DNA of 64,000 nucleotides, taken from assembly GCA_037440005.1 (NCBI GenBank), contig JBBIUY010000008.1:7806-71805 (forward strand). Reading direction: 5' to 3'. The notes beneath the pieces were generated by a model. That model saw only the letters and a list, made by a program, of their open reading frames with translations. It ran no database searches and was not told where the DNA came from. This DNA comes from Armatimonadota bacterium (GTDB lineage: Bacteria > Sysuimicrobiota > Sysuimicrobiia > Sysuimicrobiales > Kaftiobacteriaceae). Shown piece by piece: positions 11,620-47,635 of this stretch. The position numbers and the translations under genes are program-made. Within the stretch, counting starts at the first letter, position 1, and the number at the start of each line of letters is the position of its first letter.

Positions 11620-12758
11620 GGATCACAGGCGACCTCACCACTCACGTGGTCGGCTTCTGCCGGGCGCTGCGGGCCCGCGGGCTGACCGTGGGGCCGCAGG
11701 AGGCGGCCGACGCCCTGCGGGCCCTGGCCGCCGTGGACGTGGCCGACCGGCGGGATTGCTACCTGGCCCTGCGCACGGTCCTGACGTCCCGCCACGAGGA
11801 GCTGGAGGTGTTCGACCAGGTCTTCGCCGAGTTCTGGAACCCTCCGGCGCCGGTCCCCGACGGCCCGCCGGGCGGCCAGACCGACGCGCCGACGCCCCGG
11901 GACGACGGCGAGCCCGCCGTCCCCCAGGTTCGTGAGTGGCTGGACGACGCCCTGGGCCCCGCCGACGGGGAGGAGGCCGCGGCCGCCTACAGTCCGGTGG
12001 ACGTCCTCACCCACAAGGACTTCAGCGCCTTCAGCGCCGACGAGCTGGCCGAGGTCAGCCGCCTGGTGGTGGCCATCGCCCGCCGGGTGGCCACGCGCCT
12101 GTCCCGGCGCATGCGGGCCGCCCGCCGGGGCCACCTGGTGGACCTGCGCCGGACCATCCGCCACAGCCTGCGGCGGGGCGGAGAGGTGATCGACCTGGCG
12201 TACCGCCGTCGGCGGATCCGCAAGACCCGGGTGGTGGTCCTGGCGGACGTGAGCGGGTCGATGGACCTGTACAGCCGGTTTCTGGTGCAGTTCATCTTCG
12301 CCCTGCAGCACACCCTGGGCCAGGTGGAGACCATGGTGTTCAGCACCCGCCTCACCCGGGTGACCGACGCCCTGTCCGAGGCGGACCTGCACACCGCCCT
12401 GGACCAGGTGGCCCGCCAGGTGCCCGACTGGTCGGGCGGGACCAAGATCGGTCACAGCCTGCGCCAGTTCCTGGACCGCTACGGGGCCGGCCTGCTGGGC
12501 GCGCGGACGGTGGTCATCATCATCAGCGACGGGTGGGACACCGGGGACATCGACGTCCTGGACGCGGCCATGCGGGAACTACGGGCGCGGGCGGGGAGGG
12601 TCATCTGGCTGAACCCGCTGCTGGGCAGCCCGGGCTACGAGCCCATCTGCCAGGGCATGCGGACGGCGCTGCCCTACGTGGACGTCTTCGCGTCCGCCCA
12701 CAACCTGGACAGCCTGCGCCGGCTGGAGCGGCACCTGGCCCTGCACGGCCGCCGGTAG
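11616..12758 (+). CDS. coxE: VWA-domain CoxE-like protein
   Basis: MIDAS DVSGSM, WSGGTKIG, ISDGWD and WLNPL; ATGA coupling to coxD. Confidence 0.88.
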   Translation: MRITGDLTTHVVGFCRALRARGLTVGPQEAADALRALAAVDVADRRDCYLALRTVLTSRHEELEVFDQVFAEFWNPPAPVPDGPPGGQTDAPTPRDDGEPAVPQVREWLDDALGPADGEEAAAAYSPVDVLTHKDFSAFSADELAEVSRLVVAIARRVATRLSRRMRAARRGHLVDLRRTIRHSLRRGGEVIDLAYRRRRIRKTRVVVLADVSGSMDLYSRFLVQFIFALQHTLGQVETMVFSTRLTRVTDALSEADLHTALDQVARQVPDWSGGTKIGHSLRQFLDRYGAGLLGARTVVIIISDGWDTGDIDVLDAAMRELRARAGRVIWLNPLLGSPGYEPICQGMRTALPYVDVFASAHNLDSLRRLERHLALHGRR

Positions 12759-12790
12759 GCGGCCGGCGGCGCGGGCGGGGAGCGGAGGCC

Positions 12791-13933
12791 ATGAAGGAGC
12801 TGGTGGAGATCCTGGACGCCATGGAGGGCTTCGCCCGGGCCGGGGAGCCCATGGCCCTGGCCACCATCGTGGGCGTGCGCGGCTCCACCTACCGGCGGGA
12901 GGGGGCGCGGCTGCTGCTGACCCGCAGCCAGCAGATGGTCGGCAACATCAGCGGCGGCTGCCTGGAGAGCGACGTGATGGTGGTGGCCGACGAGGTGATG
13001 CGCACGGGCCGGCCGCGGGTGGTGACCTACGACCTCACCGCCGACGACGACGTGGTGTGGGGGCTGGGGCTGGGGTGCAACGGCGCCGTGGACATCTTCA
13101 TCGAGCCCGTGGACCCCGCCCAGGAGGTCTTCGCCCTGTACCGCCGCGCCGTCGCCGAGGAGAGGTCTCTGGTCGTGGTCACGGCCCTGGGCGGGGCCGT
13201 TGCCCCGGGAGCGCGGCTGGCGGTCTGGCCGGACGGCGTCCGGGTGGGTACTTTGGGCGATCCGGACCTGGACCAGCGGGCGGTCCGGACGGCCGAGGCC
13301 GCCCTGCAGGAGGGCGCCTCCCGGGTGCACACCCTCGCGGCCCGCGGGGGCGAGGCGTCCTGCTTCGTGGAGGTGGTGCGTCCGCCGATCCGGCTGGTGG
13401 TGTGCGGCGCGGGCCACGACGCGGTGCCGGTGGTGCAGATGGCCTCCGCCCTGGGGTGGCGGGTGGTGGTGGTGGACTCCCGGGAGCGGTTTCTCACGCC
13501 CCAGAGGTTTCCCGGCGCCCGGCAGTTCGTGCGGGCCGAGCCGGCCGAGGCGGCCCGCCGGGTGCCCGTGGACCGGCGCACCTACGTGGTGGTCATGACC
13601 CACAACTACCTGCACGACCGCGACCTGCTGCGCGGGTTTCTGGCCACCGAGGTTCCCTACATCGGGATGCTGGGCCCCCGCATCCGCACCGAGAAGATCC
13701 TGGCCGACCTGCGCCGGGACGGCGTGCGCGTCACCGACGACGATCTGGCGCGGGTCTACGGCCCGGTGGGTCTGGACCTGGGAGGGGAGACCCCCGAGGA
13801 GATCGCCCTGGCGGTGGTGGGCGAGATCCAGGCGGTCCAGGCGGGCCGGCGCGCCGGGTTCCTGAGGGACCGGCCCGGCCCCATCCACCAGCCCCTCGAC
13901 CGCCGGACCCAGGTGCCGGGCGGACCGGCCTGA
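12791..13933 (+). CDS. XdhC/CoxF/CoxI molybdenum-cofactor insertion chaperone
   Basis: GSTYRREGA, ISGGCLE, GLGCNG and GLDLGGETPEEIA motifs. Confidence 0.88.
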   Translation: MKELVEILDAMEGFARAGEPMALATIVGVRGSTYRREGARLLLTRSQQMVGNISGGCLESDVMVVADEVMRTGRPRVVTYDLTADDDVVWGLGLGCNGAVDIFIEPVDPAQEVFALYRRAVAEERSLVVVTALGGAVAPGARLAVWPDGVRVGTLGDPDLDQRAVRTAEAALQEGASRVHTLAARGGEASCFVEVVRPPIRLVVCGAGHDAVPVVQMASALGWRVVVVDSRERFLTPQRFPGARQFVRAEPAEAARRVPVDRRTYVVVMTHNYLHDRDLLRGFLATEVPYIGMLGPRIRTEKILADLRRDGVRVTDDDLARVYGPVGLDLGGETPEEIALAVVGEIQAVQAGRRAGFLRDRPGPIHQPLDRRTQVPGGPA

Positions 13934-13970
13934 TTCCCGCGAGGGCCCGCCCTCAGGAGCGCATCAGTCC

Positions 13971-14561
13971 GTGAGCGAGGACCGTGCCGCCGTCGCCGCG
14001 GTGGTCCTGGCGGCCGGGGCCAGCCGCCGCATGGGACGGCCCAAGCTGGCGCTGACCCACCAGGGACGTCCTCTGCTGCGCCGCGTGGTGGAGGCGGCGG
14101 TCGAGGGCGGCTGCGACCCGGTGATGGTGGTGCTGGGCGCCGACGCCGACAGATACCGGCCGGTGCTGGAGGGCACGCCGGCCCGGGTCGTCTACAATCC
14201 GGAGCACGAGCACGGCATGAGCACGTCCATCCGCGCCGGCATCGAGGCCCTGCCCGAGGACGCCCGCGCGGCCGTGATCCTGCTGGCCGACCAGCCGTTC
14301 ATCGACGCGGAGGTCATCCGCCGGATGCTCCAGACCTACCGCATCACCGGGAGCAGGATCGTCGCCTGCCGGTACGGAGACGTGGTCGGCGTCCCCGCCC
14401 TGTTCGACCGGGCCCTGTTTTTGGAGCTGCTGGTGCTGGACGGAGACCAGGGAGCGCGCCAGGTGCTGCAGGCCTACCCCCGGCACGTCGCCACCGTCGA
14501 GATCCCCCCCGAAGCCGCCCGCGACATCGACACGCCCGACGACGCCGCGTTGCTGCGCTGA
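13971..14561 (+). CDS. mocA: Molybdenum cofactor cytidylyltransferase
   Basis: LAAGASRRMGRPK, LADQP, GDQGAR and DIDT motifs; cluster context. Confidence 0.82.
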   Translation: MSEDRAAVAAVVLAAGASRRMGRPKLALTHQGRPLLRRVVEAAVEGGCDPVMVVLGADADRYRPVLEGTPARVVYNPEHEHGMSTSIRAGIEALPEDARAAVILLADQPFIDAEVIRRMLQTYRITGSRIVACRYGDVVGVPALFDRALFLELLVLDGDQGARQVLQAYPRHVATVEIPPEAARDIDTPDDAALLR

Positions 14562-14572
14562 CCCACTTGTCC

Positions 14573-14618
14573 GGGGTCTGTCCCCGGGGGGGGACAGACC
14601 CCGCTGGGGACAGACCCC
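14573..14618. repeat. REP-like repeat: GGGGTCTGTCCCC followed by two inverted copies GGGGACAGACCCC
   Basis: Exact 13-mers at 14573-14585, 14590-14602 and 14606-14618 between convergent genes. Confidence 0.7.
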
Positions 14619-14650
14619 CGGCGTCGCACGAGCGGGTGAAGAGGCGGACC

Positions 14651-16534
14651 TCAGGGAGCAGGGGGCGGCACCACGACCAGGGCCGCCGGCACCGGGCGCT
14701 CGCCGGTCTCGTCGGAGGGGAGGTTCAGCAACCGGCCCCCGACCACCAGGGTGGTCGAGCCGCCGCCGTCCAGGTTGATCCCGTCCACCGCCCCCAGCCG
14801 GTACAGTTCCAGGGCCAGTTCCGGCAGCGTCATGCCCAGGCTGTGGGTGGGCTGCCGGCCGTCCACGGCCACCAGCACGATCCGCCCGTCGGACAGCACC
14901 CCCAGCGCCGTGCGGGGGTGCCGGCGGAACACCAGCGAGGCCGGGAGGCCCTCATCGGCCACCAGCTGGCCGCCCCCCAGCAGGCGCGGGCCGCCGCCCA
15001 CGGCGTGACTCACCTGCGCCCAGCGGGGATCCCCGGAGGCGGGCACCAGGCGGATCTCCACCGACACCGGCGTGCCGACCGTCAGGTGCTCCAGGATCCA
15101 CCGGCGCGCCCTCCCGTGGCCCGAGATCACCACGCCGTCGGGAGGGATCGGCGTGTTTCCCCTCCCGTCGACCACCGCGGTGACCACGCCCGCGCGGACG
15201 GTCGCTTCCGCGCCGTACGGGTTGGTCCGGGTGGAGGCGTCGAAGGTCGGCCGGAACAGGATCAGTTCGTCGGCGCCGCGCTCGCGGTTGACCCCGTCCA
15301 GGACCGCCCGGGACCGGGGGGTGGCGACGGCGGCGTCCCACCGAACGCGGTCGATCAGGACGCCGCCGTCCTCGGTCAGCCCGGCGCAGCTGCGCTGGGG
15401 GTCCGGCTCGCTGAGCACCTCCCCGTCCAGGACCAGGCACCCCGCGGGGTCGCCGGTGGGGCTGAAGAAGTTGGCGTTCACCGCGGCCAGCGCCTGGGTG
15501 CGCCGGGCGATGTCGCTGGTCCGGGCCCGGCGCATCCGCCGGTCGTCGCCGAGGGCGGGCCGGATCCTGATACCCGTGCGGGGGTCCACCACCACGGCCG
15601 CCACCCGGAACGGCCCGGGCAGGATGTCCGGGTCGGCGACCGTCTGCACGACCCAGGTGGGATACCCGTCCGAGGCCAGATCGTCCCGGGCCAGCGCCGC
15701 TTCGGCGGGCGTGGCGAAAGCTCCCACCCGGACCTTGTACAGCCCGTCCACGAACTCCACCATCACCGGCAGCCCTCTGGAGCCTACGGCCGCGGCCAGC
15801 CGCCGCGCGTTGTCCTCGCTGCGGAAGGCGCCCACCTGCACCCGCCAGACCGGCGGAACCCGCAGGACGCCGCGGCGCTCCACCCACACGTCCACCCCTC
15901 CGGCCGCCAGGGTGTAGCGCAGCCGCAGCCCCCGCTCCACCGCCAGCAGGGCGCCGCCCACCAGGCTCGCGGCTTCCCCTCGGGTGAGGGCGGCGGATGG
16001 ACGGAACTGCAGGGCGGGAGGTTCCCGCAGCAGCGGAGGATCGGTCCGCGCCGCGACGGCGATCGCCCCGCGCACGGACGCCGGCAGGTCGGCCACGTCG
16101 TCGTAGTGGGGAGGATCGTCGGCCAGGGCGAGGGCCTCGAAGGAGTACCCCAGGGCGGACACCACCTGGGCCACCGCGTCCGCCCGCGTCTGGGGCGCGT
16201 CCGGGGCGAACACCGCCGTCCGGGAGATCAGTCCGTAGGCGGCGGCCGCCTCCACGTACGGCGCCAGTGGGTGGGTGGCTGGAACGTCCGGCAGCAGGGT
16301 CGAGGACGGGCGCAGCGGAATCCGCAGAGCCCGCACCAGCCACGCGGTGAACTCGGCGCGGGTGAGGGGCTCGTCGGGGCGGAACAGGCCGGCGGCGAGG
16401 TCGGCGACGCCGCGCTGCACCAGCAGCAGGATCCGATCCTCGGCCCAGTGGCCGGCCGCGTCGGCCGCCGCAGGTTGCGCCCGCGCGGCCAGGGGCAGCA
16501 CGGCGACGATGAGGACGCACGCCGCGACACGCAT
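14651..16534 (-). CDS. Secreted SLH + SPOR + phosphodiester glycosidase (NAGPA-like) protein
   Basis: Signal peptide; SLH motifs (GHWAE, FRPDEPLTRAE); SPOR motif (VQVGAF, YKVRVG); NANFF, HPRTA and NLDGGGST. Confidence 0.82.
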   Translation of the reverse strand: MRVAACVLIVAVLPLAARAQPAAADAAGHWAEDRILLLVQRGVADLAAGLFRPDEPLTRAEFTAWLVRALRIPLRPSSTLLPDVPATHPLAPYVEAAAAYGLISRTAVFAPDAPQTRADAVAQVVSALGYSFEALALADDPPHYDDVADLPASVRGAIAVAARTDPPLLREPPALQFRPSAALTRGEAASLVGGALLAVERGLRLRYTLAAGGVDVWVERRGVLRVPPVWRVQVGAFRSEDNARRLAAAVGSRGLPVMVEFVDGLYKVRVGAFATPAEAALARDDLASDGYPTWVVQTVADPDILPGPFRVAAVVVDPRTGIRIRPALGDDRRMRRARTSDIARRTQALAAVNANFFSPTGDPAGCLVLDGEVLSEPDPQRSCAGLTEDGGVLIDRVRWDAAVATPRSRAVLDGVNRERGADELILFRPTFDASTRTNPYGAEATVRAGVVTAVVDGRGNTPIPPDGVVISGHGRARRWILEHLTVGTPVSVEIRLVPASGDPRWAQVSHAVGGGPRLLGGGQLVADEGLPASLVFRRHPRTALGVLSDGRIVLVAVDGRQPTHSLGMTLPELALELYRLGAVDGINLDGGGSTTLVVGGRLLNLPSDETGERPVPAALVVVPPPAP

Positions 16535-16595
16535 CCGCCCGATCAGGTTCCCCCCTCCCCCGCGCTCTCCCTGCGAGGACCCGGGATACCGTTCG

Positions 16596-16648
16596 CCCCC
16601 AAATTTTGGGGACGGACGCAGAAGGAGAACCCAGATGTGGTGGCGAAC
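16596..16648 (+). promoter_or_regulatory. Tandem NrdR-like boxes (16596-16611 and 16628-16643) overlapping a sigma-H-like promoter (AGGA 16623-16626, GAAC 16645-16648)
   Basis: Both boxes match the core CnAnATnTnG and are offset by 32 bp; AGGA-N18-GAAC. Confidence 0.6.
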
Positions 16649-16730
16649 TAATGTGCGCGACGGTCACAGGACCGTCCATTCTGCGCCGGCGCCTCCGGGC
16701 GACCCGGCGCCACGCGGGGGAGGGTGGTCC

Positions 16731-16763
16731 ATGGCCAAGAAGAAGGCCAAGAAGAAGAAGTAG
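16731..16763 (+). CDS. Lysine-rich micropeptide MAKKKAKKKK (10 aa)
   Basis: GGGAGGG RBS 7 nt before the ATG; own putative promoter and terminator; lies in an intergenic gap. Confidence 0.55.
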   Translation: MAKKKAKKKK

Positions 16764-16787
16764 GACCGACCCAACGGAGGTTGGGTG

Positions 16788-16825
16788 AAACAAGAGACGG
16801 CGCGGTGTGCCGCCTCTTGTTTTTT
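16788..16825 (+). terminator. Intrinsic terminator, probably bidirectional
   Basis: AAACAAGAG-ACGGCGC/GTGCCGC-CTCTTGTTT stem followed by a T run; lies between convergent units. Confidence 0.8.
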
Positions 16826-16885
16826 GCTTCCCGCCCGGGGAGTCCGCCGACTGCCAGTCTGTCGGGGCGCGTGGGGGCGGACCGC

Positions 16886-18250
16886 TCAGGCGGCGGAGGA
16901 CTGCACCAGGGCCGAGGCGTCCACGCCCGCGTCGGCGGGATCCACGCCGCCGGCGATCCACCGGTCCGCATCCGCCGACAGGTCCACCACCTCGGCCGGG
17001 TGTCCGTCGCGCACCACCTGCACCACGGGGCGGTCCGCCTGCGCCTCCGCCGGCCGGACCACCACCGCCAGCTCTCCGGTGTTGAGCTGCACCAGGCTGC
17101 CCACCGGATACACGCCCATCATCCGCAGGAAGATCTTGCCCACCACCGGGTCGTAGACGCTGCCCAGCCCGACGGCGATCCACTTCATCGCCAGCTCGGG
17201 GCGCAACGGGCGCTGGGTGCCCCGGCGGGCCGACGTCACCGTGTCGTAGGTGTCGGCCACGGCCACGATGCGGGAGAACAGGTGCGGCCGCACCCCGCTG
17301 GCCGGCTCCGGGTAGCCGGAGCCGTCGGCGTGCAGATGGTGTTCCAGGGCGCACACCATGGCCAGCCGGCCCAGCCCGTCCAGGTCCCGCAGGATGTTGG
17401 CCCCGTGCAGGGGGTGCCGGTCGAGGGCGGCCTGCTCGCCGGGCTCCAGGGGCCCGGCCCGGTTCAGCAGGTCGGCGGGCACCCGCACCTTCCCGATGTC
17501 GTGGAGCAGCGCGCCCATCCCCAGGGCCATCAGCGCCTCGCGGCCGAGCTCCAGCCGGGTGCCGATCAACAGGGCCAGCAGCGCCACGTTGACGGCGTGG
17601 TACGCGCTGGACTCGTCGTGGCGGCGGTCGGCCAACAGAGCCAGCAGGGCCGACCGGTTCTCCAGGACCACCTCGATGGCCGCCGAGAGGAAGATCCGCG
17701 CCCGGTGCATGTCCAGGGGCTGGCGGCGCACCGCCTGGGCCCGGAGCTCCTGGGCCACCAGGGCCCCCGCCTGATACGCGCTGGCCGGTTCCACCTCCAC
17801 GGGCATGTCGGTGGGCGGCGCGTCCCGGGGGGGCTCCACCGTCAGGTGCTGCACGCCGGCCTCCGACAGCACCGCGGCCGGTCCGCCGCGGGCGCGCACC
17901 ACGGCGGTGGGGGTGGTCAGCAGCCCGACGAAGGCGTGCACCTCCTGGGCGGTCACTCCCCGGCGGACCGCAAACAGCCCCACGCCCCGCTCCAGGCAGG
18001 CGGTGAGCAGGGCGGCGTTGCGCAGGCTTTCCTCCGGCAGCATCTGGTTGTCCAGGAAGAACGTGTCCTCGTAGATCTGGAACGTGATCGCCTCGCGGTC
18101 CCGCAGCAGCAGGTCCACCAGCTGCACCAGGTCGTCCATGGCCCGCCGGACGATGGGGTGCTCGGACGGATACATGGCCCGGTGTTTGCACGCGGTGGCC
18201 AGGTACCGCAGCAGGGTGGCCGTCACCGAGGGGCTCCGCAGGCGCGTCAC
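16886..18250 (-). CDS. HD-GYP domain phosphohydrolase with an uncharacterised N-terminal domain
   Basis: LLHDIGK, HHLHADGSGYP and VADTYD motifs; C-terminal GVYPVGSLV. Confidence 0.85.
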   Translation of the reverse strand: MTRLRSPSVTATLLRYLATACKHRAMYPSEHPIVRRAMDDLVQLVDLLLRDREAITFQIYEDTFFLDNQMLPEESLRNAALLTACLERGVGLFAVRRGVTAQEVHAFVGLLTTPTAVVRARGGPAAVLSEAGVQHLTVEPPRDAPPTDMPVEVEPASAYQAGALVAQELRAQAVRRQPLDMHRARIFLSAAIEVVLENRSALLALLADRRHDESSAYHAVNVALLALLIGTRLELGREALMALGMGALLHDIGKVRVPADLLNRAGPLEPGEQAALDRHPLHGANILRDLDGLGRLAMVCALEHHLHADGSGYPEPASGVRPHLFSRIVAVADTYDTVTSARRGTQRPLRPELAMKWIAVGLGSVYDPVVGKIFLRMMGVYPVGSLVQLNTGELAVVVRPAEAQADRPVVQVVRDGHPAEVVDLSADADRWIAGGVDPADAGVDASALVQSSAA

Positions 18251-18253
18251 GGG

Positions 18254-20299
18254 CTATCCACCCCGGCCGGCCGGTCCGGCCCGCCGCAACCGGTTCAGCG
18301 CGGCGCGGGCGGCGCGGGCGACCTCGCGGTCGCGGCGGCGCAGCCGGAACGGCGAGCTCAGCCGCCGCAGGACCGGAATCGCCTCCTGCACCCCGACGGA
18401 GGCCAGCAGCTCGATGACCCGTATCCGCAGCTGCGGGCGGGGCGCCGTCTCCGGCCGGGTCAGCAGATCGGTCAGGGCGCCGGCGGCGCGCCGCACCGTC
18501 TCCGGCCGCAGGTGGCGCACGCAGGCCTCCCGGACCTCCAGGTCCGGGTCCTGCAGAAACGCCAGCAGGGCCGCCTGGCCGTCGGCGCCGGGGAGAGGTC
18601 CCAGGGCGACCACCACGTCCCGGCGCAGCTGGGGGTCGGGGTGACGCGCCGCCGATCGCAGCGCCGCCACGGCCCGGGAGGTGCGGATGTGGACCAGCGG
18701 CGCGATGGCGGCGCGGGCGGCGGCGGCGGTGCGGTCGAGCAGGAGCGCTCCCAGCGCGTCCACGACGGCGTCTCCCATCCGGACCAGGACCGCTCCCAGC
18801 GCCTGGCGGCGGGCGGGATCGCGTTCAGAGGCGGCGGCGCGGACCAGATCGGCGCCCAGGCCCGGGCCCAGCTCGCGCAGCGCCTGCAGCACCGGGTGGT
18901 CGTCGGGCCAGGCCGTCAGGTCGCGGGCGCCGAGGCGGGACGCCATGGTGGCGACCATCCCGCGCAGTCCCGCGCGGGCGACCTCTCCCGGGCGGCCAGG
19001 AGCCCGCAGGACCGGCGCCAGGCGCCCGAGAACCGCGGCGACCACGTCGGTGGCACCGCGCTCCAGCAGGGCGTCCACGTCGGCGGCCAGGGCGGCCAGG
19101 GTCGCCTCCAGTTCCTGGGGGTCGTCCTCCCCCCGGGCCAGGCGCGCCAGGGCCAGCGCGTGCTCCCGCAGGACCGCGTCGTCGTCCACGGACGCCTCCT
19201 CCCGCAGGGCGGCGATCTCCTCGTCGGTGACCAGGAGGCTGTCGTCGGAGACCTGGTAGTCCGAGAGGTCCTGGGGGATGTCCCGGACCCACGGCGGCAG
19301 CCGCAGTTCCTCCGGGACCGGAGGCAGGTCGAAGGTGCGCCCGGTGTGCTGGCTGACCAGGGCCAGCGCGTCGCGGGCCTTGTCGGGGTCGAAGGGGAGG
19401 CCGCGGGCCACCTGGGCCACCTGGGGGGGAGGTTCGCCTTCCTCCAGGCACGGGATGACCATGCGGGCGATCTGCTCGCTGGTCATGGCCGCCAGCAGCG
19501 CCCGGGCCGACAGGTCCTGGGCCGCCCGCTCCAGGACGGCCCGGTGCACGTCGCGCGAATGCGGGTCGGACAGGTCCGTGACCGCCGACGCCAGGTGCTG
19601 GAGCAGCTGCTGGGAGTCGGCGGCCGGCGTGTCGGCGATCAGCCGGTCCACCGCGGCCAGCGCCGCGTACACCCGCGCGCCCAGGGCGTGGCCTGCGGCG
19701 GCGTCGGGGAACGCCTGCCGAGTCCGCTCCACCAGGACCGACAGCAGCCGGGCGGCGTGCTGGGGTCCCGCCCGCAGCACGCCCACCAGCGCCGCCCTCT
19801 CCGCCGCGGACAGGGAGCCGTCCAGCAGGCGGTGGTACGTCTCCAGGGAGATCTGGGCGGGGTCGTCGTCGCTCGGCCGCAGCTCCACCACCCGGGCGTG
19901 GTCGATGCGGTGGGCCACGAGCAATCCCGCGAGCCCTCCTTCCCGCAGGATGACCTCGGGGTCCATGGTCACCACGTCCAGCAGCCGGTGGGCCTCGTCC
20001 TCGGTCAGGCCCGGCAGCAGGACCAGCTGCCAGACGCCGGCCGAGTACAGCTGCAGGGCCAGGCTGTCGATGGACTCGCCTCCCTCGAACGGGCGTCCTT
20101 CCAGGATCAGGCCGTCCCGGTGGGTCTCCAGGACGAACCCTCCGTAGCGCTCGTGGAAGGAGGCCAGGGTGGCCACCAGCGCCTGCACGGTCTGGGCGCG
20201 CAGGGGGTGTCCCGCCGCGTACAGCCGGCGGGATTTCACGGCCGCGTTCAGCCGCCGCACCACCGCGGCCGCCGCCTGGGCCCGGCCCGAGACGCTCAT
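18254..20299 (-). CDS. HEAT-repeat protein
   Basis: C-terminal HEAT/PBS-lyase-like repeats (HPDPQLRRDVV, DPDLEVREAC). Confidence 0.72.
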   Translation of the reverse strand: MSVSGRAQAAAAVVRRLNAAVKSRRLYAAGHPLRAQTVQALVATLASFHERYGGFVLETHRDGLILEGRPFEGGESIDSLALQLYSAGVWQLVLLPGLTEDEAHRLLDVVTMDPEVILREGGLAGLLVAHRIDHARVVELRPSDDDPAQISLETYHRLLDGSLSAAERAALVGVLRAGPQHAARLLSVLVERTRQAFPDAAAGHALGARVYAALAAVDRLIADTPAADSQQLLQHLASAVTDLSDPHSRDVHRAVLERAAQDLSARALLAAMTSEQIARMVIPCLEEGEPPPQVAQVARGLPFDPDKARDALALVSQHTGRTFDLPPVPEELRLPPWVRDIPQDLSDYQVSDDSLLVTDEEIAALREEASVDDDAVLREHALALARLARGEDDPQELEATLAALAADVDALLERGATDVVAAVLGRLAPVLRAPGRPGEVARAGLRGMVATMASRLGARDLTAWPDDHPVLQALRELGPGLGADLVRAAASERDPARRQALGAVLVRMGDAVVDALGALLLDRTAAAARAAIAPLVHIRTSRAVAALRSAARHPDPQLRRDVVVALGPLPGADGQAALLAFLQDPDLEVREACVRHLRPETVRRAAGALTDLLTRPETAPRPQLRIRVIELLASVGVQEAIPVLRRLSSPFRLRRRDREVARAARAALNRLRRAGPAGRGG

Positions 20300-21302: not shown

Positions 21303-21381
21303 GGGGGCGTGGTGTAGCCTGGTTCAACACACCTGCCTGTCACGCAGGAGATCGCGGGTTCAAATCCCGTCGCTCCCGCCA
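21303..21381 (+). tRNA. tRNA-Asp(GTC)
   Basis: Cloverleaf with GGGGGCG/CGCTCCC acceptor stem, CCTGC-CTGTCAC-GCAGG anticodon arm, TTCAAAT T-loop and encoded CCA. Confidence 0.95.
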
Positions 21382-21382
21382 T

Positions 21383-21458
21383 GCCGGGGTAGCTCAGTTG
21401 GTAGAGCGCGGGCCTGAAGAGCCCGGCGTCGGCGGTTCAAGTCCGTCCCCCGGCACCA
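21383..21458 (+). tRNA. tRNA-Phe(GAA)
   Basis: GCCGGGG/CCCCGGC acceptor stem, CGGGC-CTGAAGA-GCCCG anticodon arm, encoded CCA. Confidence 0.95.
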
Positions 21459-21600
21459 GGGCGGCCGTGACGGCGGGGTGGCGCTGACGGTCCGCCCACG
21501 GGCATCACGCGATGGAGCTCGCGTAACCGCCCGCCGCGACGGGCTGATAGCTCCTACCGGAAGTCCGGTGGGAGCTTTGCTGCTTATGGGGGAATCACCG

Positions 21601-47553: not shown

Positions 47554-47635
47554 ATTCCCCCTCCCCCTCCCGAATTCCTTCTGGCGATATCAACATGTTG
47601 TGGATAAGCTGCGGGTTTGCTCCCATATCCTGGGG
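47554..47635 (-). promoter_or_regulatory. thyX promoter region: sigma-H-like AGGA-N18-GAAT, tandem NrdR-like boxes (47588-47603 and 47620-47635) and a perfect DnaA box (47599-47607)
   Basis: tatCAACATGTTGtgg and ctcCCATATCCTGggg offset by 32 bp; TGTGGATAA is the reverse complement of TTATCCACA. Confidence 0.7.

What the first reader, a model, noticed from the sequence alone, without database searches (positions are those of the whole stretch)
16596..16825. Stand-alone gene for a 10-aa polylysine micropeptide (MAKKKAKKKK) under apparent NrdR control
Seen in the sequence: the gap between two minus-strand genes holds a complete plus-strand unit. It has a promoter-like AGGA-N18-GAAC, two 5' hairpins (GACGGTC/GACCGTC; GGCGCC..CCGG/CCGG.CGCC), a GGGAGGG RBS, ATG GCC AAG AAG AAG GCC AAG AAG AAG AAG TAG, a hairpin (ACCCAAC/GTTGGGT) and a strong intrinsic terminator. 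Two 16-bp boxes matching CnAnATnTnG (cccCcAaATtTtGggg; aacCcAgATgTgGtgg) sit exactly 32 bp apart, the second inside the promoter spacer. The same box pair and spacing occur at thyX in this window. Established: NrdR, the ATP/dATP-sensing repressor of ribonucleotide reductase genes, binds tandem acaCwAtATaTwGtgt boxes about 31-32 bp apart. Inference: a dNTP/replication-coupled, protamine-like nucleic-acid-binding micropeptide or dual-function sRNA, below gene-caller size limits. I know of no described system like it.
Basis: partly seen in the sequence, partly recalled or inferred. Interest (0 to 1): 0.85.

Follow-up and report, generated by a model that had tools for sequence, protein, structure and literature searches.

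The report
NrdR-controlled polylysine micropeptide gene
A tiny stand-alone gene for a 10-residue, almost pure lysine peptide is real and conserved, and it carries the DNA switch that bacteria normally use only for genes that make DNA building blocks, in two unrelated bacterial phyla.

Summary
Window 16596-16825 carries a complete plus-strand unit: two NrdR boxes 32 bp apart, a sigma-H-like promoter whose spacer is filled by box 2, a 5' hairpin, a strong Shine-Dalgarno site, the sORF ATG 16731 to TAG 16763 (MAKKKAKKKK), a post-stop hairpin and an intrinsic terminator.

The unit is present in 20 of 22 genomes of the window's family and in a sister family. There the sORF is 10-14 aa, with ATG/GTG and TAA/TAG swaps, synonymous Ala codons and Lys-to-Arg changes through unrelated codons.

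A matrix built only from nrdR promoters ranks this box pair in the genome's top five, with nrdR-RNR, thyX, mraZ and ftsA. Eight of 8 orthologues of the divergent SLH-SPOR gene that lack the sORF also lack the boxes, so the operator belongs to the sORF.

Independently, 17 of 30 sampled nrdR loci of the Rokubacteria/Methylomirabilota phylum have a polylysine sORF convergent to nrdR. Fifteen of those 17 have an NrdR-like box pair upstream.

No Rfam, Pfam or NCBIfam family and no paper found covers it. Expression, NrdR binding and peptide function are untested. My best reading is a translated oligolysine polycation made when dNTP synthesis is derepressed. Interest is high.

The parts
16596..16611 (.). 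NrdR box 1 (CCCCCAAATTTTGGGG)
   Evidence: Scores 12.6 bits with a matrix built from 42 nrdR-promoter boxes of the family. The pair ranks 4th genome-wide. It is conserved at the same place in 26 orthologous units.
16621..16629 (+). Sigma-H-like -35 element (GAAGGAGAA)
   Evidence: One mismatch to RNAGGAWWW, the consensus quoted in PMC8510167. It sits at the same position in 26 of 26 orthologues. A SigH orthologue is present in the genome.
16628..16643 (.). NrdR box 2 (AACCCAGATGTGGTGG), filling the promoter spacer
   Evidence: Scores 12.6 bits and lies 32 bp from box 1. It resembles box 2 of the family's nrdR promoters.
16642..16650 (+). Sigma-H-like -10 element (GGCGAACTA)
   Evidence: One mismatch to RNNGAATWW. 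GGCGAAC is invariant in the 19-sequence alignment.
16655..16678 (+). Conserved 5' stem-loop, probably at or near the 5' end of the transcript
   Evidence: Six-pair stem in 19 of 19 sequences. One pair covaries: CG in 13, UA in 4.
16683..16712 (+). Variable second hairpin (lineage-specific insertion)
   Evidence: Present in 8 of 19 aligned sequences with differing sequence, absent in 11.
16716..16727 (+). Extended Shine-Dalgarno region (GGGGGAGGGTGG)
   Evidence: GGGAGG-type SD ends 7-14 nt before the start codon in 26 of 26 orthologues.
16731..16763 (+). sORF MAKKKAKKKK plus TAG stop
   Evidence: Among 26 orthologues, 10 are 10 aa, 10 are 12 aa and 6 are 13 aa. Starts are ATG 20, GTG 6; stops are TAA 19, TAG 7. 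All four Ala2 codons occur; Lys-to-Arg changes use AGA, AGG or CGG.
16769..16786 (+). Post-stop hairpin ACCCAAC/GTTGGGT
   Evidence: Predicted in the MFE fold. The stem sequence differs between genera while pairing is kept, e.g. GACGCAG/CTGCGTT.
16788..16825 (+). Intrinsic terminator with an A-tract before and a T-tract after (looks bidirectional)
   Evidence: The stem base ACAAGAG/CTCTTGT is nearly invariant in the family and unique in the genome.
14651..16534 (-). Divergent neighbour: SLH + SPOR + NAGPA protein. Context only, not part of the unit.
   Evidence: Pfam. It is upstream of the unit in 19 of 20 f1 loci and 10 of 10 f5 loci. Orthologues without the sORF have no boxes.
16886..18250 (-). 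Convergent neighbour: HD-domain protein (HD_5). Context only.
   Evidence: Pfam and NCBIfam. It is downstream in 15 of 20 f1 loci and replaced by another gene in f5.
47588..47635 (.).
   Evidence: Pair score 26.0, rank 3 in the genome. Conserved in 6 of 6 family genomes that have thyX.

Best explanation
This is an independent, very small protein-coding gene.

1. A sigma-H-type promoter (-35 at 16621-16629, -10 at 16642-16650) drives a transcript of about 170-180 nt. The transcript begins at a protective 5' stem-loop and ends at a strong terminator.
2. An NrdR operator, two boxes 31-32 bp apart, sits on this promoter. Box 2 fills the -35/-10 spacer and box 1 lies just upstream. NrdR loaded with ATP and dATP would therefore shut the promoter when dNTPs are plentiful and release it when dNTP synthesis is called for, together with nrdR-RNR and thyX.
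3. A very strong SD then drives translation of MAKKKAKKKK. After likely removal of Met before Ala, the product is a 9-mer of net charge about +7.
4. The peptide is the product. It most likely acts by plain electrostatics as a genetically encoded oligocation on nucleic acid, chiefly newly made DNA. This would be a minimal (AKKK)2 counterpart of histone-H1-like or protamine-like proteins, supplied in step with DNA synthesis.

Shown here: the anatomy, its conservation, the NrdR-type operator, its attachment to the sORF, and its recurrence in another phylum next to nrdR.
Inferred: transcription start, repression by NrdR, translation, Met removal, and the target of the peptide.

My own odds: real conserved unit 0.97; operator serves the sORF 0.8; translated 0.8; the peptide rather than the RNA is the effector 0.65; nucleic-acid polycation role 0.35.
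For: Conservation:
- The unit was found in 20 of 22 genomes of family f1 and in 10 f5 genomes examined.
- All 26 orthologues analysed keep SD, start and stop.
- Changes look like those of a coding sequence: four synonymous Ala2 codons, insertions of whole Ala/Gly/Lys codons, terminal Lys to Arg by AGA, AGG or CGG, ATG/GTG and TAA/TAG swaps.

NrdR:
- nrdR is present, with Zn-ribbon and ATP-cone.
- A PWM built only from nrdR promoters of 21 loci gives five outstanding box pairs in 2.44 Mb: 34.8 nrdR, 30.2 ftsA, 26.0 thyX, 25.2 this unit, 24.3 mraZ. The next scores 15.9.
- The spacing of 31-32 bp equals the 15-16-bp spacer reported as the common NrdR site (PMC12051234, passages read).

Operator belongs to the sORF:
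- 8 of 8 SLH-SPOR-NAGPA orthologues in families f4 and f7 have neither sORF nor box pair within 630 nt upstream (best scores -4.4 to -10.9).
- 10 of 10 f1/f5 loci with the sORF score 11.2-27.6.
- The box-to-sORF distance is held at 103-149 nt. In the ten loci, box 1 lies at offsets 84-334 in a region that begins 30 nt inside the approximate SLH gene start.
- Box 2 lies between the -35 and -10 of a plus-strand promoter motif present in 26 of 26 orthologues. SigH scores 355.7 bits against a cut-off of 294.8.

Second phylum:
- 17 of 30 nrdR loci sampled from the phylum of G041 carry a 10-14-aa polylysine sORF convergent to nrdR.
- The best upstream core pair has at most 1 mismatch in 11 of 17 and at most 2 in 15 of 17.
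- Tiling the same loci gives 10 and 14 of 486 windows at those thresholds.
- RNR genes of those genomes carry similar pairs.

Composition: there is a continuum from 10 aa to more than 300 aa of AKKK-repeat ORFs in many phyla. A 60-aa form gives a sub-threshold HC2/H1-like hit.
Against: - There are no expression data of any kind.
- AAG is a trinucleotide repeat, so in-frame length change alone is weak evidence for coding.
- AAG runs are also (ARN)n-like motifs, and an Hfq-like gene exists (30.8 bits, cut-off 27).
- The promoter assignment rests on a consensus from Bacillus with 1-3 mismatches. The -10 reads GAAC, not GAAT.
- Two other polylysine sORFs in the same genome have no NrdR boxes, so the peptide is not tied to NrdR as such.
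- The divergent SLH-SPOR gene stays linked to the unit in 29 of 30 f1/f5 loci, and NrdR pairs also precede the division genes mraZ and ftsA. Co-control of the SPOR gene is therefore not excluded.
- H1/HC2 similarity is below the family cut-off (18.9 bits against 40).
- A nonamer binds DNA only weakly unless it is abundant (my knowledge of oligolysine-DNA binding, not tested).
- Relatives are not independent samples.
Confidence: 0.45

Rival explanations
1. Regulatory or dual-function small RNA. The roughly 170-nt terminated transcript is the effector, for example by base-pairing, by titrating an RNA-binding protein such as Hfq through its AAG (A-R-N-like) run, or as an antisense or interference RNA toward the convergent gene. 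Translation would be incidental or only tune its stability.
For: - sRNA-like size, with a 5' stem-loop and a strong terminator.
- The terminator stem base and GGCGAAC are conserved in sequence more than pairing alone requires.
- An Hfq-like gene is present.
- The unit is convergent with nrdR in 17 of 30 sampled loci of the second phylum.
Against: - The SD, start and stop are kept in 26 of 26 orthologues while the codons drift. Lys to Arg via CGG destroys the A-R-N pattern but keeps the charge.
- GGCGAAC is better explained as a -10 element.
- The convergent partner differs between lineages: an HD-domain gene, an acyl-CoA-dehydrogenase-like gene by its N-terminal sequence (not scanned against any family), or nrdR. 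A strong terminator lies in between.
- No Rfam family matches.
Confidence: 0.15
2. Lysine-codon leader peptide. Ribosome progress through seven AAG codons would sense Lys-tRNA supply (or another translation state) and set termination or read-through into downstream DNA, like his/phe/thr leaders or the polycysteine sORFs of mycobacteria (both recalled from memory, not read here).
For: - A run of one codon is followed by a hairpin and a terminator.
- In 6 of the 17 second-phylum loci the sORF lies about 0.9-1.9 kb from nrdR. In the related loci L053, L050, L102, L136 and L126 of the genome-contig scan, an EamA-type transporter gene follows the sORF in the same direction (Pfam run on L053 only).
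- One family member (L010) has a co-directional ORF after the unit.
Against: - The downstream gene is convergent in 15 of 20 f1 loci and in the two f5 loci checked (L216, L220), and in the 11 second-phylum loci where nrdR is adjacent.
- Masking the first 14 nt after the stop leaves the terminator intact in 26 of 26 folds, so there is no antiterminator.
- All three sORFs of this genome are stand-alone.
- NrdR control has no obvious link to lysine supply.
Confidence: 0.12
3. The peptide is a specific partner of the dNTP system itself, for example a modulator of NrdR oligomers or DNA binding, of the B12-dependent RNR, or of nucleotide pools, rather than a general polycation.
For: - The NrdR operator recurs in two phyla, and the sORF is physically adjacent to nrdR in 17 of 30 sampled loci of the second phylum.
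- Genes next to a regulator and under its control often feed back on it (general knowledge).
Against: - Other copies of the same kind of peptide lack NrdR boxes and sit elsewhere.
- A low-complexity 9-10-mer offers little specificity.
- No test was possible. The complex predictor needs chains of 30 residues or more, so I did not use it.
Confidence: 0.1
4. Ribosome- or RNA-associated basic micro-protein, in the manner of the tiny basic ribosomal proteins (eL41, bTHX, bL37/bS22; names recalled, not tested).
For: - Extreme basicity, a strong SD and several copies per genome.
- In the second phylum, tandem arrays lie convergent to a gene whose translation, by eye, reads as ribosomal protein L28 (rpmB); no family scan was run on it.
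Against: - Being convergent is not being co-transcribed.
- No ribosomal gene lies next to any of the three copies in this genome.
- The sORFs were not found by the pattern, or upstream of the SLH orthologue, in whole sister families: f3 0 of 23, f4 0 of 12 (f4). That is unlike a core ribosomal part.
- NrdR control would be odd for a ribosomal protein.
Confidence: 0.08
5. The boxes regulate only the divergent SLH-SPOR-NAGPA gene, and the sORF unit is an unrelated neighbour.
For: - The SLH-SPOR gene is upstream in 19 of 20 f1 loci and 10 of 10 f5 loci.
- SPOR domains bind septal peptidoglycan (established knowledge), and NrdR pairs also precede mraZ and ftsA. A division theme would fit.
Against: - 8 of 8 orthologues without the sORF have no boxes.
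- In the ten loci the offset of box 1 from the SLH gene start varies from 84 to 334, while the distance to the sORF is held.
- Box 2 sits inside a plus-strand promoter motif.
- In the second phylum the same sORF-plus-box arrangement has a different divergent gene, a B12-binding radical SAM protein.
Confidence: 0.05

Closest known systems
NrdR operators of ribonucleotide reductase operons
   Same: Two 16-bp palindromic boxes with a 15-16-bp spacer on a promoter, and nrdR in the genome. The box sequence is like that of the family's own nrdR-RNR promoter.
   Different: The product is a 10-aa peptide, not an RNR. In E. coli and P. aeruginosa only RNR operons have box pairs, and non-RNR genes have single boxes (preprint 10.1101/2025.03.28.645925, passages read). 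Here pairs also precede thyX, mraZ, ftsA and the sORF.
Attenuator leader peptides (his, phe, thr leaders; polycysteine sORFs of mycobacteria; recalled, not read here)
   Same: A very short ORF dominated by one codon, followed by a hairpin and a terminator.
   Different: No alternative antiterminator fold. There is usually no downstream gene in the same direction. The unit has its own regulated promoter.
Lys/Ala-rich nucleoid proteins (histone H1-like, chlamydial Hc2, AlgP-type repeats) and protamines
   Same: The same AKKK-type composition. ORFs of this kind form a length continuum from 10 aa to more than 300 aa. Supply in step with DNA synthesis recalls replication-dependent histone genes (analogy only).
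   Different: Only two repeats long. No significant family match: the 60-aa form scores 18.9 bits against a cut-off of 40, and forms of 21-41 aa match nothing. DNA binding is untested.
Tiny basic ribosomal proteins (eL41, bTHX, bL37, bS22; recalled)
   Same: Very short, very basic, encoded by their own small genes.
   Different: Shorter still. Patchy across sister families. No ribosomal gene context in this genome.
Dual-function sRNAs with a small ORF (SgrS/SgrT, RNAIII/hld, SR1/SR1P; recalled)
   Same: An sRNA-sized terminated transcript carrying a short translated ORF.
   Different: No base-pairing target is known. Conservation follows the peptide's charge rather than the nucleotide sequence.

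Membership tests
NrdR regulon member | NrdR (Zn-ribbon + ATP-cone) is encoded in the genome | tested here: met
   ATP-cone match of 88.7 bits in a 175-185-aa ORF that starts MRCPYC. An orthologue was found in 20 of 22 family genomes.
NrdR regulon member | Two NrdR boxes separated by a 15-16-bp spacer (31-32 bp centre to centre) | tested here: met
   Boxes at 16596-16611 and 16628-16643. The PWM from nrdR promoters gives 12.6 + 12.6 bits, rank 4 of the genome. Spacing is 31 (15), 32 (10) or 30 (1) in 26 orthologues. The rule is taken from PMC12051234.
NrdR regulon member | Boxes overlap or abut the promoter of the regulated gene | tested here: inconclusive
   Box 2 fills the spacer of a sigma-H-like motif that points to the sORF, but no transcription start is known. 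No RNA run holds the locus.
NrdR regulon member | Boxes are conserved with the gene across relatives | tested here: met
   10 of 10 f1/f5 loci with the sORF have the pair and 8 of 8 loci without the sORF lack it. A similar pair stands upstream of 15 of 17 sORFs in a second phylum.
NrdR regulon member | NrdR binds the site, and the gene is derepressed without NrdR or at low dATP | not testable with these tools
   Needs EMSA/MST and expression data.
Sigma-H-dependent promoter | -35 RNAGGAWWW and -10 RNNGAATWW at the proper spacing, with SigH present | tested here: inconclusive
   Window: GAAGGAGAA, 12 nt, GGCGAACTA, with 2 mismatches. There are 1-3 mismatches in 26 of 26 orthologues. Genome-wide there are 49 sites with at most 2 mismatches against 13 in a reversed-sequence control. 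SigH scores 355.7 bits, above the cut-off. The consensus comes from a Bacillus paper. The spacing rule is recalled.
Transcription-attenuation leader peptide | Alternative antiterminator structure competing with the terminator | tested here: not met
   The terminator still forms in 26 of 26 folds when the first 14 nt after the stop are masked.
Transcription-attenuation leader peptide | A regulated gene downstream in the same direction | tested here: not met
   A convergent gene follows in 15 of 20 f1 loci and in the two f5 loci checked. One f1 locus has a co-directional ORF.
Histone H1-like / HC2 nucleoproteins (PF07382, NF038053) | Significant match to the family profile | tested here: not met
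   The 10-aa peptide is too short to scan. Forms of 21-41 aa give no hit. The 60-aa form gives 18.9 bits (cut-off 40) and 11.1 bits (cut-off 80).
Known RNA families (Rfam 15) | Match at the gathering score | tested here: not met
   Nothing at 16400-17000 above E = 1.4 and far below gathering. Nothing at the paralogue or second-phylum loci.
Translated small ORF | SD at the proper distance, start and stop kept, substitutions that preserve the peptide | tested here: met
   This is comparative evidence only.
Translated small ORF | Ribosome footprints or detected peptide | not testable with these tools
   No RNA or Ribo-seq run is available. A Lys-rich 10-mer is destroyed by trypsin (established knowledge).

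The most novel reading that the evidence does not exclude
Bacteria of at least two phyla encode oligolysine peptides of 10-14 residues as regular genes and have wired one copy into the NrdR dNTP-sensing circuit. On this reading a genetically encoded polycation is made in step with DNA synthesis. It would be a minimal bacterial counterpart of replication-coupled histone or protamine supply, or a peptide cofactor of the NrdR/RNR system. The same lineage would have widened NrdR from an RNR-only repressor to a cell-cycle regulator that also covers thyX, mraZ and ftsA.
Probability: 0.3. Interest if true: 0.9.

Novelty: categorically new. Interest (0 to 1): 0.82.

Why it matters
If the peptide is made, this is among the smallest conserved bacterial genes, and of a kind (oligolysine) that no annotation pipeline calls and no family library holds.

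It would add a new class of target to NrdR, which recent work describes as acting through box pairs only at RNR operons. It would also tie dNTP sensing to chromosome or nucleic-acid handling, and perhaps to cell division.

The unit is short and sharply defined, so every step can be tested with a synthetic peptide, an 80-bp DNA fragment and purified NrdR.

It also shows that many GC-rich, mostly uncultured lineages carry several such sORFs under different controls. This is a blind spot of genome annotation.

Tried and rejected
- **Sigma-70 promoter.** The consensus scan found none in 16000-17400. By-eye candidates (TAATGT as -10) failed in family f5, where the hexamer reads CCATGT or TCCAGT. 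Dropped in favour of the sigma-H-type motif.
- **Weak Rfam hit.** 'L31-Actinobacteria leader' at 16680-16711 (16.2 bits, gathering 35, E = 3.4) lies in the non-conserved inserted hairpin. Chance.
- **SD-sequestering alternative fold.** The own-sequence MFE pairs the 3' arm of the 5' hairpin with the SD spacer. By eye the pairing is lost in genera whose spacer reads GGGGACGC, and it was not computed. Dropped.
- **GACGG-hairpin as a repeated element.** 53 such hairpins occur in the genome, so it is ordinary in GC-rich DNA.
- **'Polyamine substitute'.** Spermidine-synthase family PF01564 is present in 94 of 94 genomes of the phylum, with or without sORFs. No correlation, so rejected.
- **Synteny within f1.** It cannot separate the boxes from the SLH gene. 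This was solved by looking at families without the sORF.
- **RNA evidence.** No RNA holder was listed for window 14600-18300. Four DNA runs were listed, one of which may be the source.
- **Literature.**
  - NrdR / small ORF / lysine-rich, polylysine / small open reading frame / bacterial and lysine-rich / small protein / nucleoid / sORF: only the listings were seen, and nothing was relevant.
  - The exact strings of the two commonest peptides occur in 0 papers.
  - Two searches timed out.
  - Supplements were not opened. Supplementary NrdR-box tables of 10.1101/2025.03.28.645925 and PMC12051234 could list non-RNR sites that I could not see.
  - The library lacks most subscription journals, so 'not in print' means not found in these searches.
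- **Counts resting on unpublished genomes.**
  - G074 (L203) is 1 of the 17 second-phylum loci. Without it the count is 16 of 29, with 10 and 14 of 16 at the mismatch thresholds.
  - G033 (L221) is 1 of the 6 f5 type-A loci.
  - G126 (L224) is one paralogue locus.
  - G033 and G126 are also among the f5 genomes tallied.
Full report
**1. What is there**

The window is contig C8:7806-71805 of a 2.44-Mb, 72.8% G+C genome in 70 contigs. The genes are an SLH+SPOR+NAGPA protein at 14651-16534 and an HD-domain protein at 16886-18250.

On the plus strand the gap holds, in order:
- an NrdR-like box (16596-16611);
- a purine-rich element GAAGGAGAA (16621-16629);
- a second NrdR-like box (16628-16643);
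- GGCGAACTA (16642-16650);
- a stem-loop (16655-16678);
- a GC-rich second hairpin (16683-16712);
- an extended Shine-Dalgarno site (16716-16727);
- ATG at 16731, nine further sense codons (MAKKKAKKKK) and TAG at 16761-16763;
- a 7-bp hairpin (16769-16786);
- an intrinsic terminator (16788-16825) with an A-tract before and a T-tract after it.

The terminator is the only one the scan finds in 16000-17400. The RNA from 16655 to 16826 folds far better than shuffles (z = -4.96).

The long ORF 16275-16763 listed by the ORF tool is the same frame. It is open upstream only because GC-rich DNA lacks stops. The open stretch varies from 14 to 198 codons among the five family-type loci of the named scan (L040, L045, L097, L100, L110).

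**2. Is it more than chance?**

The loose NrdR core CNANATNTNG occurs 95 times in the genome. Only two pairs lie within 60 bp, both exactly 32 bp apart: this one and one in front of ftsA.

Only four ORFs of 5-31 codons in the genome are at least half lysine. Three are polylysine sORFs behind an SD. They are this one, C12:24696 (VAKKKGKKKM) and C20:21236 (VAKKKAAKKKKKK). The fourth is a 5-codon chance ORF.

**3. Conservation**

A DNA search of relatives found the unit in the window's family, f1. The orthologous sORF with its flanks is present in 20 of 22 genomes, G000 included. In G004 and G017 only other polylysine sORF types were found.

The sister family f5 has it as well. Six genomes carry VAKKKAAKKKKGK-type sORFs. 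Four more carry VAKKAKKAAKKKGK and were found through the neighbouring gene.

In 26 orthologues:
- the start is ATG (20) or GTG (6);
- the stop is TAA (19) or TAG (7);
- the length is 10 (10), 12 (10) or 13 (6) residues;
- an SD ends 7-14 nt before the start.

Within the ORF the changes are of a coding kind. All four Ala codons occur at position 2. Whole Ala, Gly or Lys codons are inserted. The last Lys is replaced by Arg through AGA, AGG or CGG.

Outside the ORF, indels have any length, and a whole hairpin comes and goes. The 5' stem-loop and the terminator are kept in all 19 aligned sequences, with a few covarying pairs. I read this as selection on a translated peptide whose charge matters.

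One caveat applies. AAG repeats slip by three bases, so in-frame length change alone proves little.

**4. Are the boxes NrdR boxes?**

The genome encodes NrdR, with a Zn-ribbon start MRCPYC and an ATP-cone (88.7 bits). It lies directly upstream of an RNR gene on contig C30.

In 21 nrdR loci of the family, the nrdR promoter is a clean TTGACA-N17/18-TAGAAT (TAAAAT in one locus). One NrdR box sits in the spacer and a second just after the -10.

I built a weight matrix from these 42 boxes alone and scanned the whole genome for pairs 29-33 bp apart. Five pairs stand out:

| Score | Location |
|---|---|
| 34.8 | nrdR |
| 30.2 | ftsA upstream |
| 26.0 | thyX upstream (window 47588-47635) |
| 25.2 | this unit |
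| 24.3 | mraZ upstream |

The next pair scores 15.9.

The spacing of 31-32 bp is the 15-16-bp spacer described as the common NrdR site (PMC12051234, passages read). It holds in all 6 family genomes that have thyX, out of 22 searched.

**5. Whose operator is it?**

Within f1 and f5 that gene is always next to the unit: 19 of 20 f1 loci, 6 of 6 f5 type-A loci and 4 of 4 variant loci. Synteny there cannot decide.

Families f4 and f7 have full-length orthologues of the SLH-SPOR-NAGPA gene (49-55% identity) but no sORF. In 8 of 8 such loci, the best box pair in a 630-nt region that starts 30 nt inside the gene start scores -4.4 to -10.9. In 10 of 10 f1/f5 loci it scores 11.2 to 27.6.

In those ten loci the offset of box 1 from the SLH gene start varies from 84 to 334 nt. 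The distance from box 1 to the sORF start stays at 103-149 nt. So the operator travels with the sORF. Co-regulation of the SLH-SPOR gene from the same site is still possible.

**6. Promoter**

No sigma-70 site is found. The two conserved elements around box 2 match the sigma-H consensus quoted in PMC8510167 (passage read). That consensus is -35 RNAGGAWWW and -10 RNNGAATWW.

The window has one mismatch in each element and a 12-nt spacer. All 26 orthologues have 1-3 mismatches and an 11-12-nt spacer at the same place. A paralogue type in f5 matches even better (GCAGGAAAA-N11-CGCGAATAG).

Genome-wide, 49 sites have at most 2 mismatches, against 13 in a reversed-sequence control. The genome has a SigH orthologue above the curated cut-off (355.7 against 294.8 bits). 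Among 14 control genomes only Bacillus subtilis passes that cut-off.

Box 2 thus fills the spacer of a plus-strand promoter. This is the same geometry as box 1 in the family's nrdR promoter. The transcript would start just before the 5' stem-loop. This is a consistent model, not a mapped start.

**7. A second phylum**

It returned 119 stretches, and 80 were listed by title. Besides long AKKK-repeat proteins, it showed many stand-alone polylysine sORFs of 10-13 aa with strong SDs in records titled Candidatus Rokuibacteriota or Methylomirabilota. It also showed 20-23-aa forms in Candidatus Eisenbacteria (L052, L106) and other loci whose titles were not shown, and a 17-aa form in Pseudonocardia, with further 18-21-aa Lys/Asp-rich forms in loci whose titles were not shown.

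Family members of the window carry only vague titles: 'Bacillati bacterium ANGP1', 'Armatimonadetes bacterium', 'bacterium'.

Some Rokubacteria sORFs sit behind a clear CTTGACA-N17-TAGCAT-type promoter (TAGAGT or TACCTT in three of the seven) that is preceded by NrdR-like boxes. They also lie next to nrdR itself (Pfam Zn_ribbon_NrdR + ATP-cone).

As a test with a denominator, I fetched the 30 best nrdR loci (about 1.5 kb of flank each side where the contig allowed) out of 56 nrdR hits in 61 sampled genomes of that phylum. The results were as follows:
- 17 of 30 carry a 10-14-aa polylysine sORF, always convergent to nrdR.
- In 11 of 17 the best upstream core pair at 30-33 bp spacing has at most one mismatch. 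In 15 of 17 it has at most two. These pairs lie 114-138 nt before the start.
- Tiling the same 30 loci gives only 10 and 14 such windows out of 486. Practically all NrdR-like pairs there are therefore the ones before the sORFs.
- RNR genes of these genomes carry similar pairs.
- The divergent gene there is a B12-binding radical SAM protein, not an SLH protein.

The same three-way link of NrdR boxes, strong SD and polylysine sORF therefore exists in two phyla with different promoters and neighbours. Whether by common descent, transfer or convergence, this argues for a functional tie between the peptide gene and the NrdR circuit.

Three caveats apply. The 30 loci are relatives of one another. 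The 26 more distant hits were not fetched. One of the 17 (L203, G074) is from an unpublished genome.

**8. What it is not**

- It matches no Rfam family.
- The peptide is too short for the protein libraries. Longer relatives of 21-41 aa match nothing. A 60-aa form only brushes the H1-like/HC2 models, below cut-off.
- It is not a classical attenuator. The terminator forms whether or not the first 14 nt after the stop are masked, in 26 of 26 folds.
- The downstream gene is convergent in 15 of 20 f1 loci and in the two f5 loci checked (L216, L220).
- All three sORFs of this genome are stand-alone.
- It does not replace polyamines. Spermidine-synthase homologues are in 94 of 94 genomes of the phylum.
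- Within that phylum (94 genomes, one order), the strict sORF pattern occurs in f1 20 of 21, f5 12 of 34, f3 0 of 23 and f4 0 of 12. A reversed-pattern control gives 0. The strict pattern misses variants, as one search showed for f5.

**9. How it most likely works**

Shown: the anatomy, its conservation, an NrdR-type operator that belongs to the sORF, and the recurrence next to nrdR in another phylum.

Inferred:
1. NrdR loaded with ATP and dATP binds both boxes and blocks a sigma-H-type promoter.
2. When the dNTP signal falls, the promoter fires together with nrdR-RNR and thyX.
3. The 5' stem-loop stabilises the short mRNA.
4. The strong SD gives high output of the peptide.
5. Met is removed before Ala (known specificity of methionine aminopeptidase), leaving a nonamer of net charge about +7.
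6. This acts as a bulk polycation on nucleic acid, most plausibly newly replicated DNA.

The function is the weakest step. A specific action on NrdR or RNR, an RNA-level role, a lysine-sensing device and a ribosome-bound peptide are kept as rivals with stated odds.

**10. Novelty**

A 2025 preprint (10.1101/2025.03.28.645925, passages read) states that in E. coli and P. aeruginosa only RNR operons have pairs of NrdR boxes, and that non-RNR genes have single boxes. My searches found no description of polylysine micro-ORFs (timed out). No curated RNA or protein family covers them.

I therefore rate it as a new kind of gene product inside a known regulatory frame. The usual reservation applies: the searchable library is incomplete, and supplements were closed.

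**Last paragraph: limits**

There are no RNA, ribosome or peptide data (one search listed no RNA run). Promoter and function are models. Relatives are not independent.

Noticed in passing
G000 contig C30:4301-4348 and C30:19234-19281 (outside the window): Strong NrdR box pairs (scores 24.3 and 30.2, 32 bp apart) lie upstream of mraZ and of ftsA. These are the two ends of the division/cell-wall cluster, on the same contig as nrdR. NrdR may act as a cell-cycle regulator in this lineage.
   Followed up: partly
window 47588-47635: An NrdR box pair lies upstream of thyX, followed by a near-perfect sigma-H-like motif (C8:55386, minus strand). thyX itself is present in only 6 of 22 family genomes, and all 6 have the pair.
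   Followed up: yes
G000 C12:24696-24728 and C20:21236-21277 (outside the window): There are two more stand-alone polylysine sORFs (VAKKKGKKKM; VAKKKAAKKKKKK) with an SD and terminators but no NrdR boxes. The C20 type has a sigma-H-like promoter and a conserved 5' UTR of about 120 nt that looks structured. It recurs in f5, G004 and G017 and has no Rfam match.
   Followed up: partly
L041, L044, L062, L063, L070, L076, L077, L095, L105, L139, L148 (Rokubacteria records): Tandem arrays of two or three polylysine sORFs, each with its own SD, follow a 356-371-aa gene. Weak, partly sub-threshold HTH_IclR/AbiEi_2 hits were obtained for that gene in L041, L077 and L095 only. In the loci printed, the arrays are convergent with a gene whose translation, by eye, reads as ribosomal protein L28 (rpmB); no family scan was run on it.
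   Followed up: partly
L053, L050, L102, L136, L126 (Rokubacteria records): In some second-phylum loci an EamA-family transporter gene follows the NrdR-box sORF in the same direction, before nrdR and glyA. The Pfam scan was run on L053 only. This is a possible leader-like use of the same sORF.
   Followed up: no
L052, L060, L106, L117, L124; L049, L115, L120, L122, L142: There are longer relatives. (AKKK)4-type sORFs of 20-23 aa (11 aa in L124) sit behind a conserved upstream element; L052 and L106 are titled Candidatus Eisenbacteria. Lys/Asp-rich sORFs of 17-21 aa include L049, titled Pseudonocardia. The titles of the other loci were not shown. None has NrdR boxes.
   Followed up: no
window 21303-21563: Two tRNA genes (21303-21378 and 21383-21455) are followed by a fluoride riboswitch (21499-21563, 44 bits, gathering 34).
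   Followed up: no
window 11936-14561: An XdhC/CoxI-family gene and a MobA-like NTP-transferase gene (molybdenum-cofactor context) lie upstream of the SLH gene.
   Followed up: no
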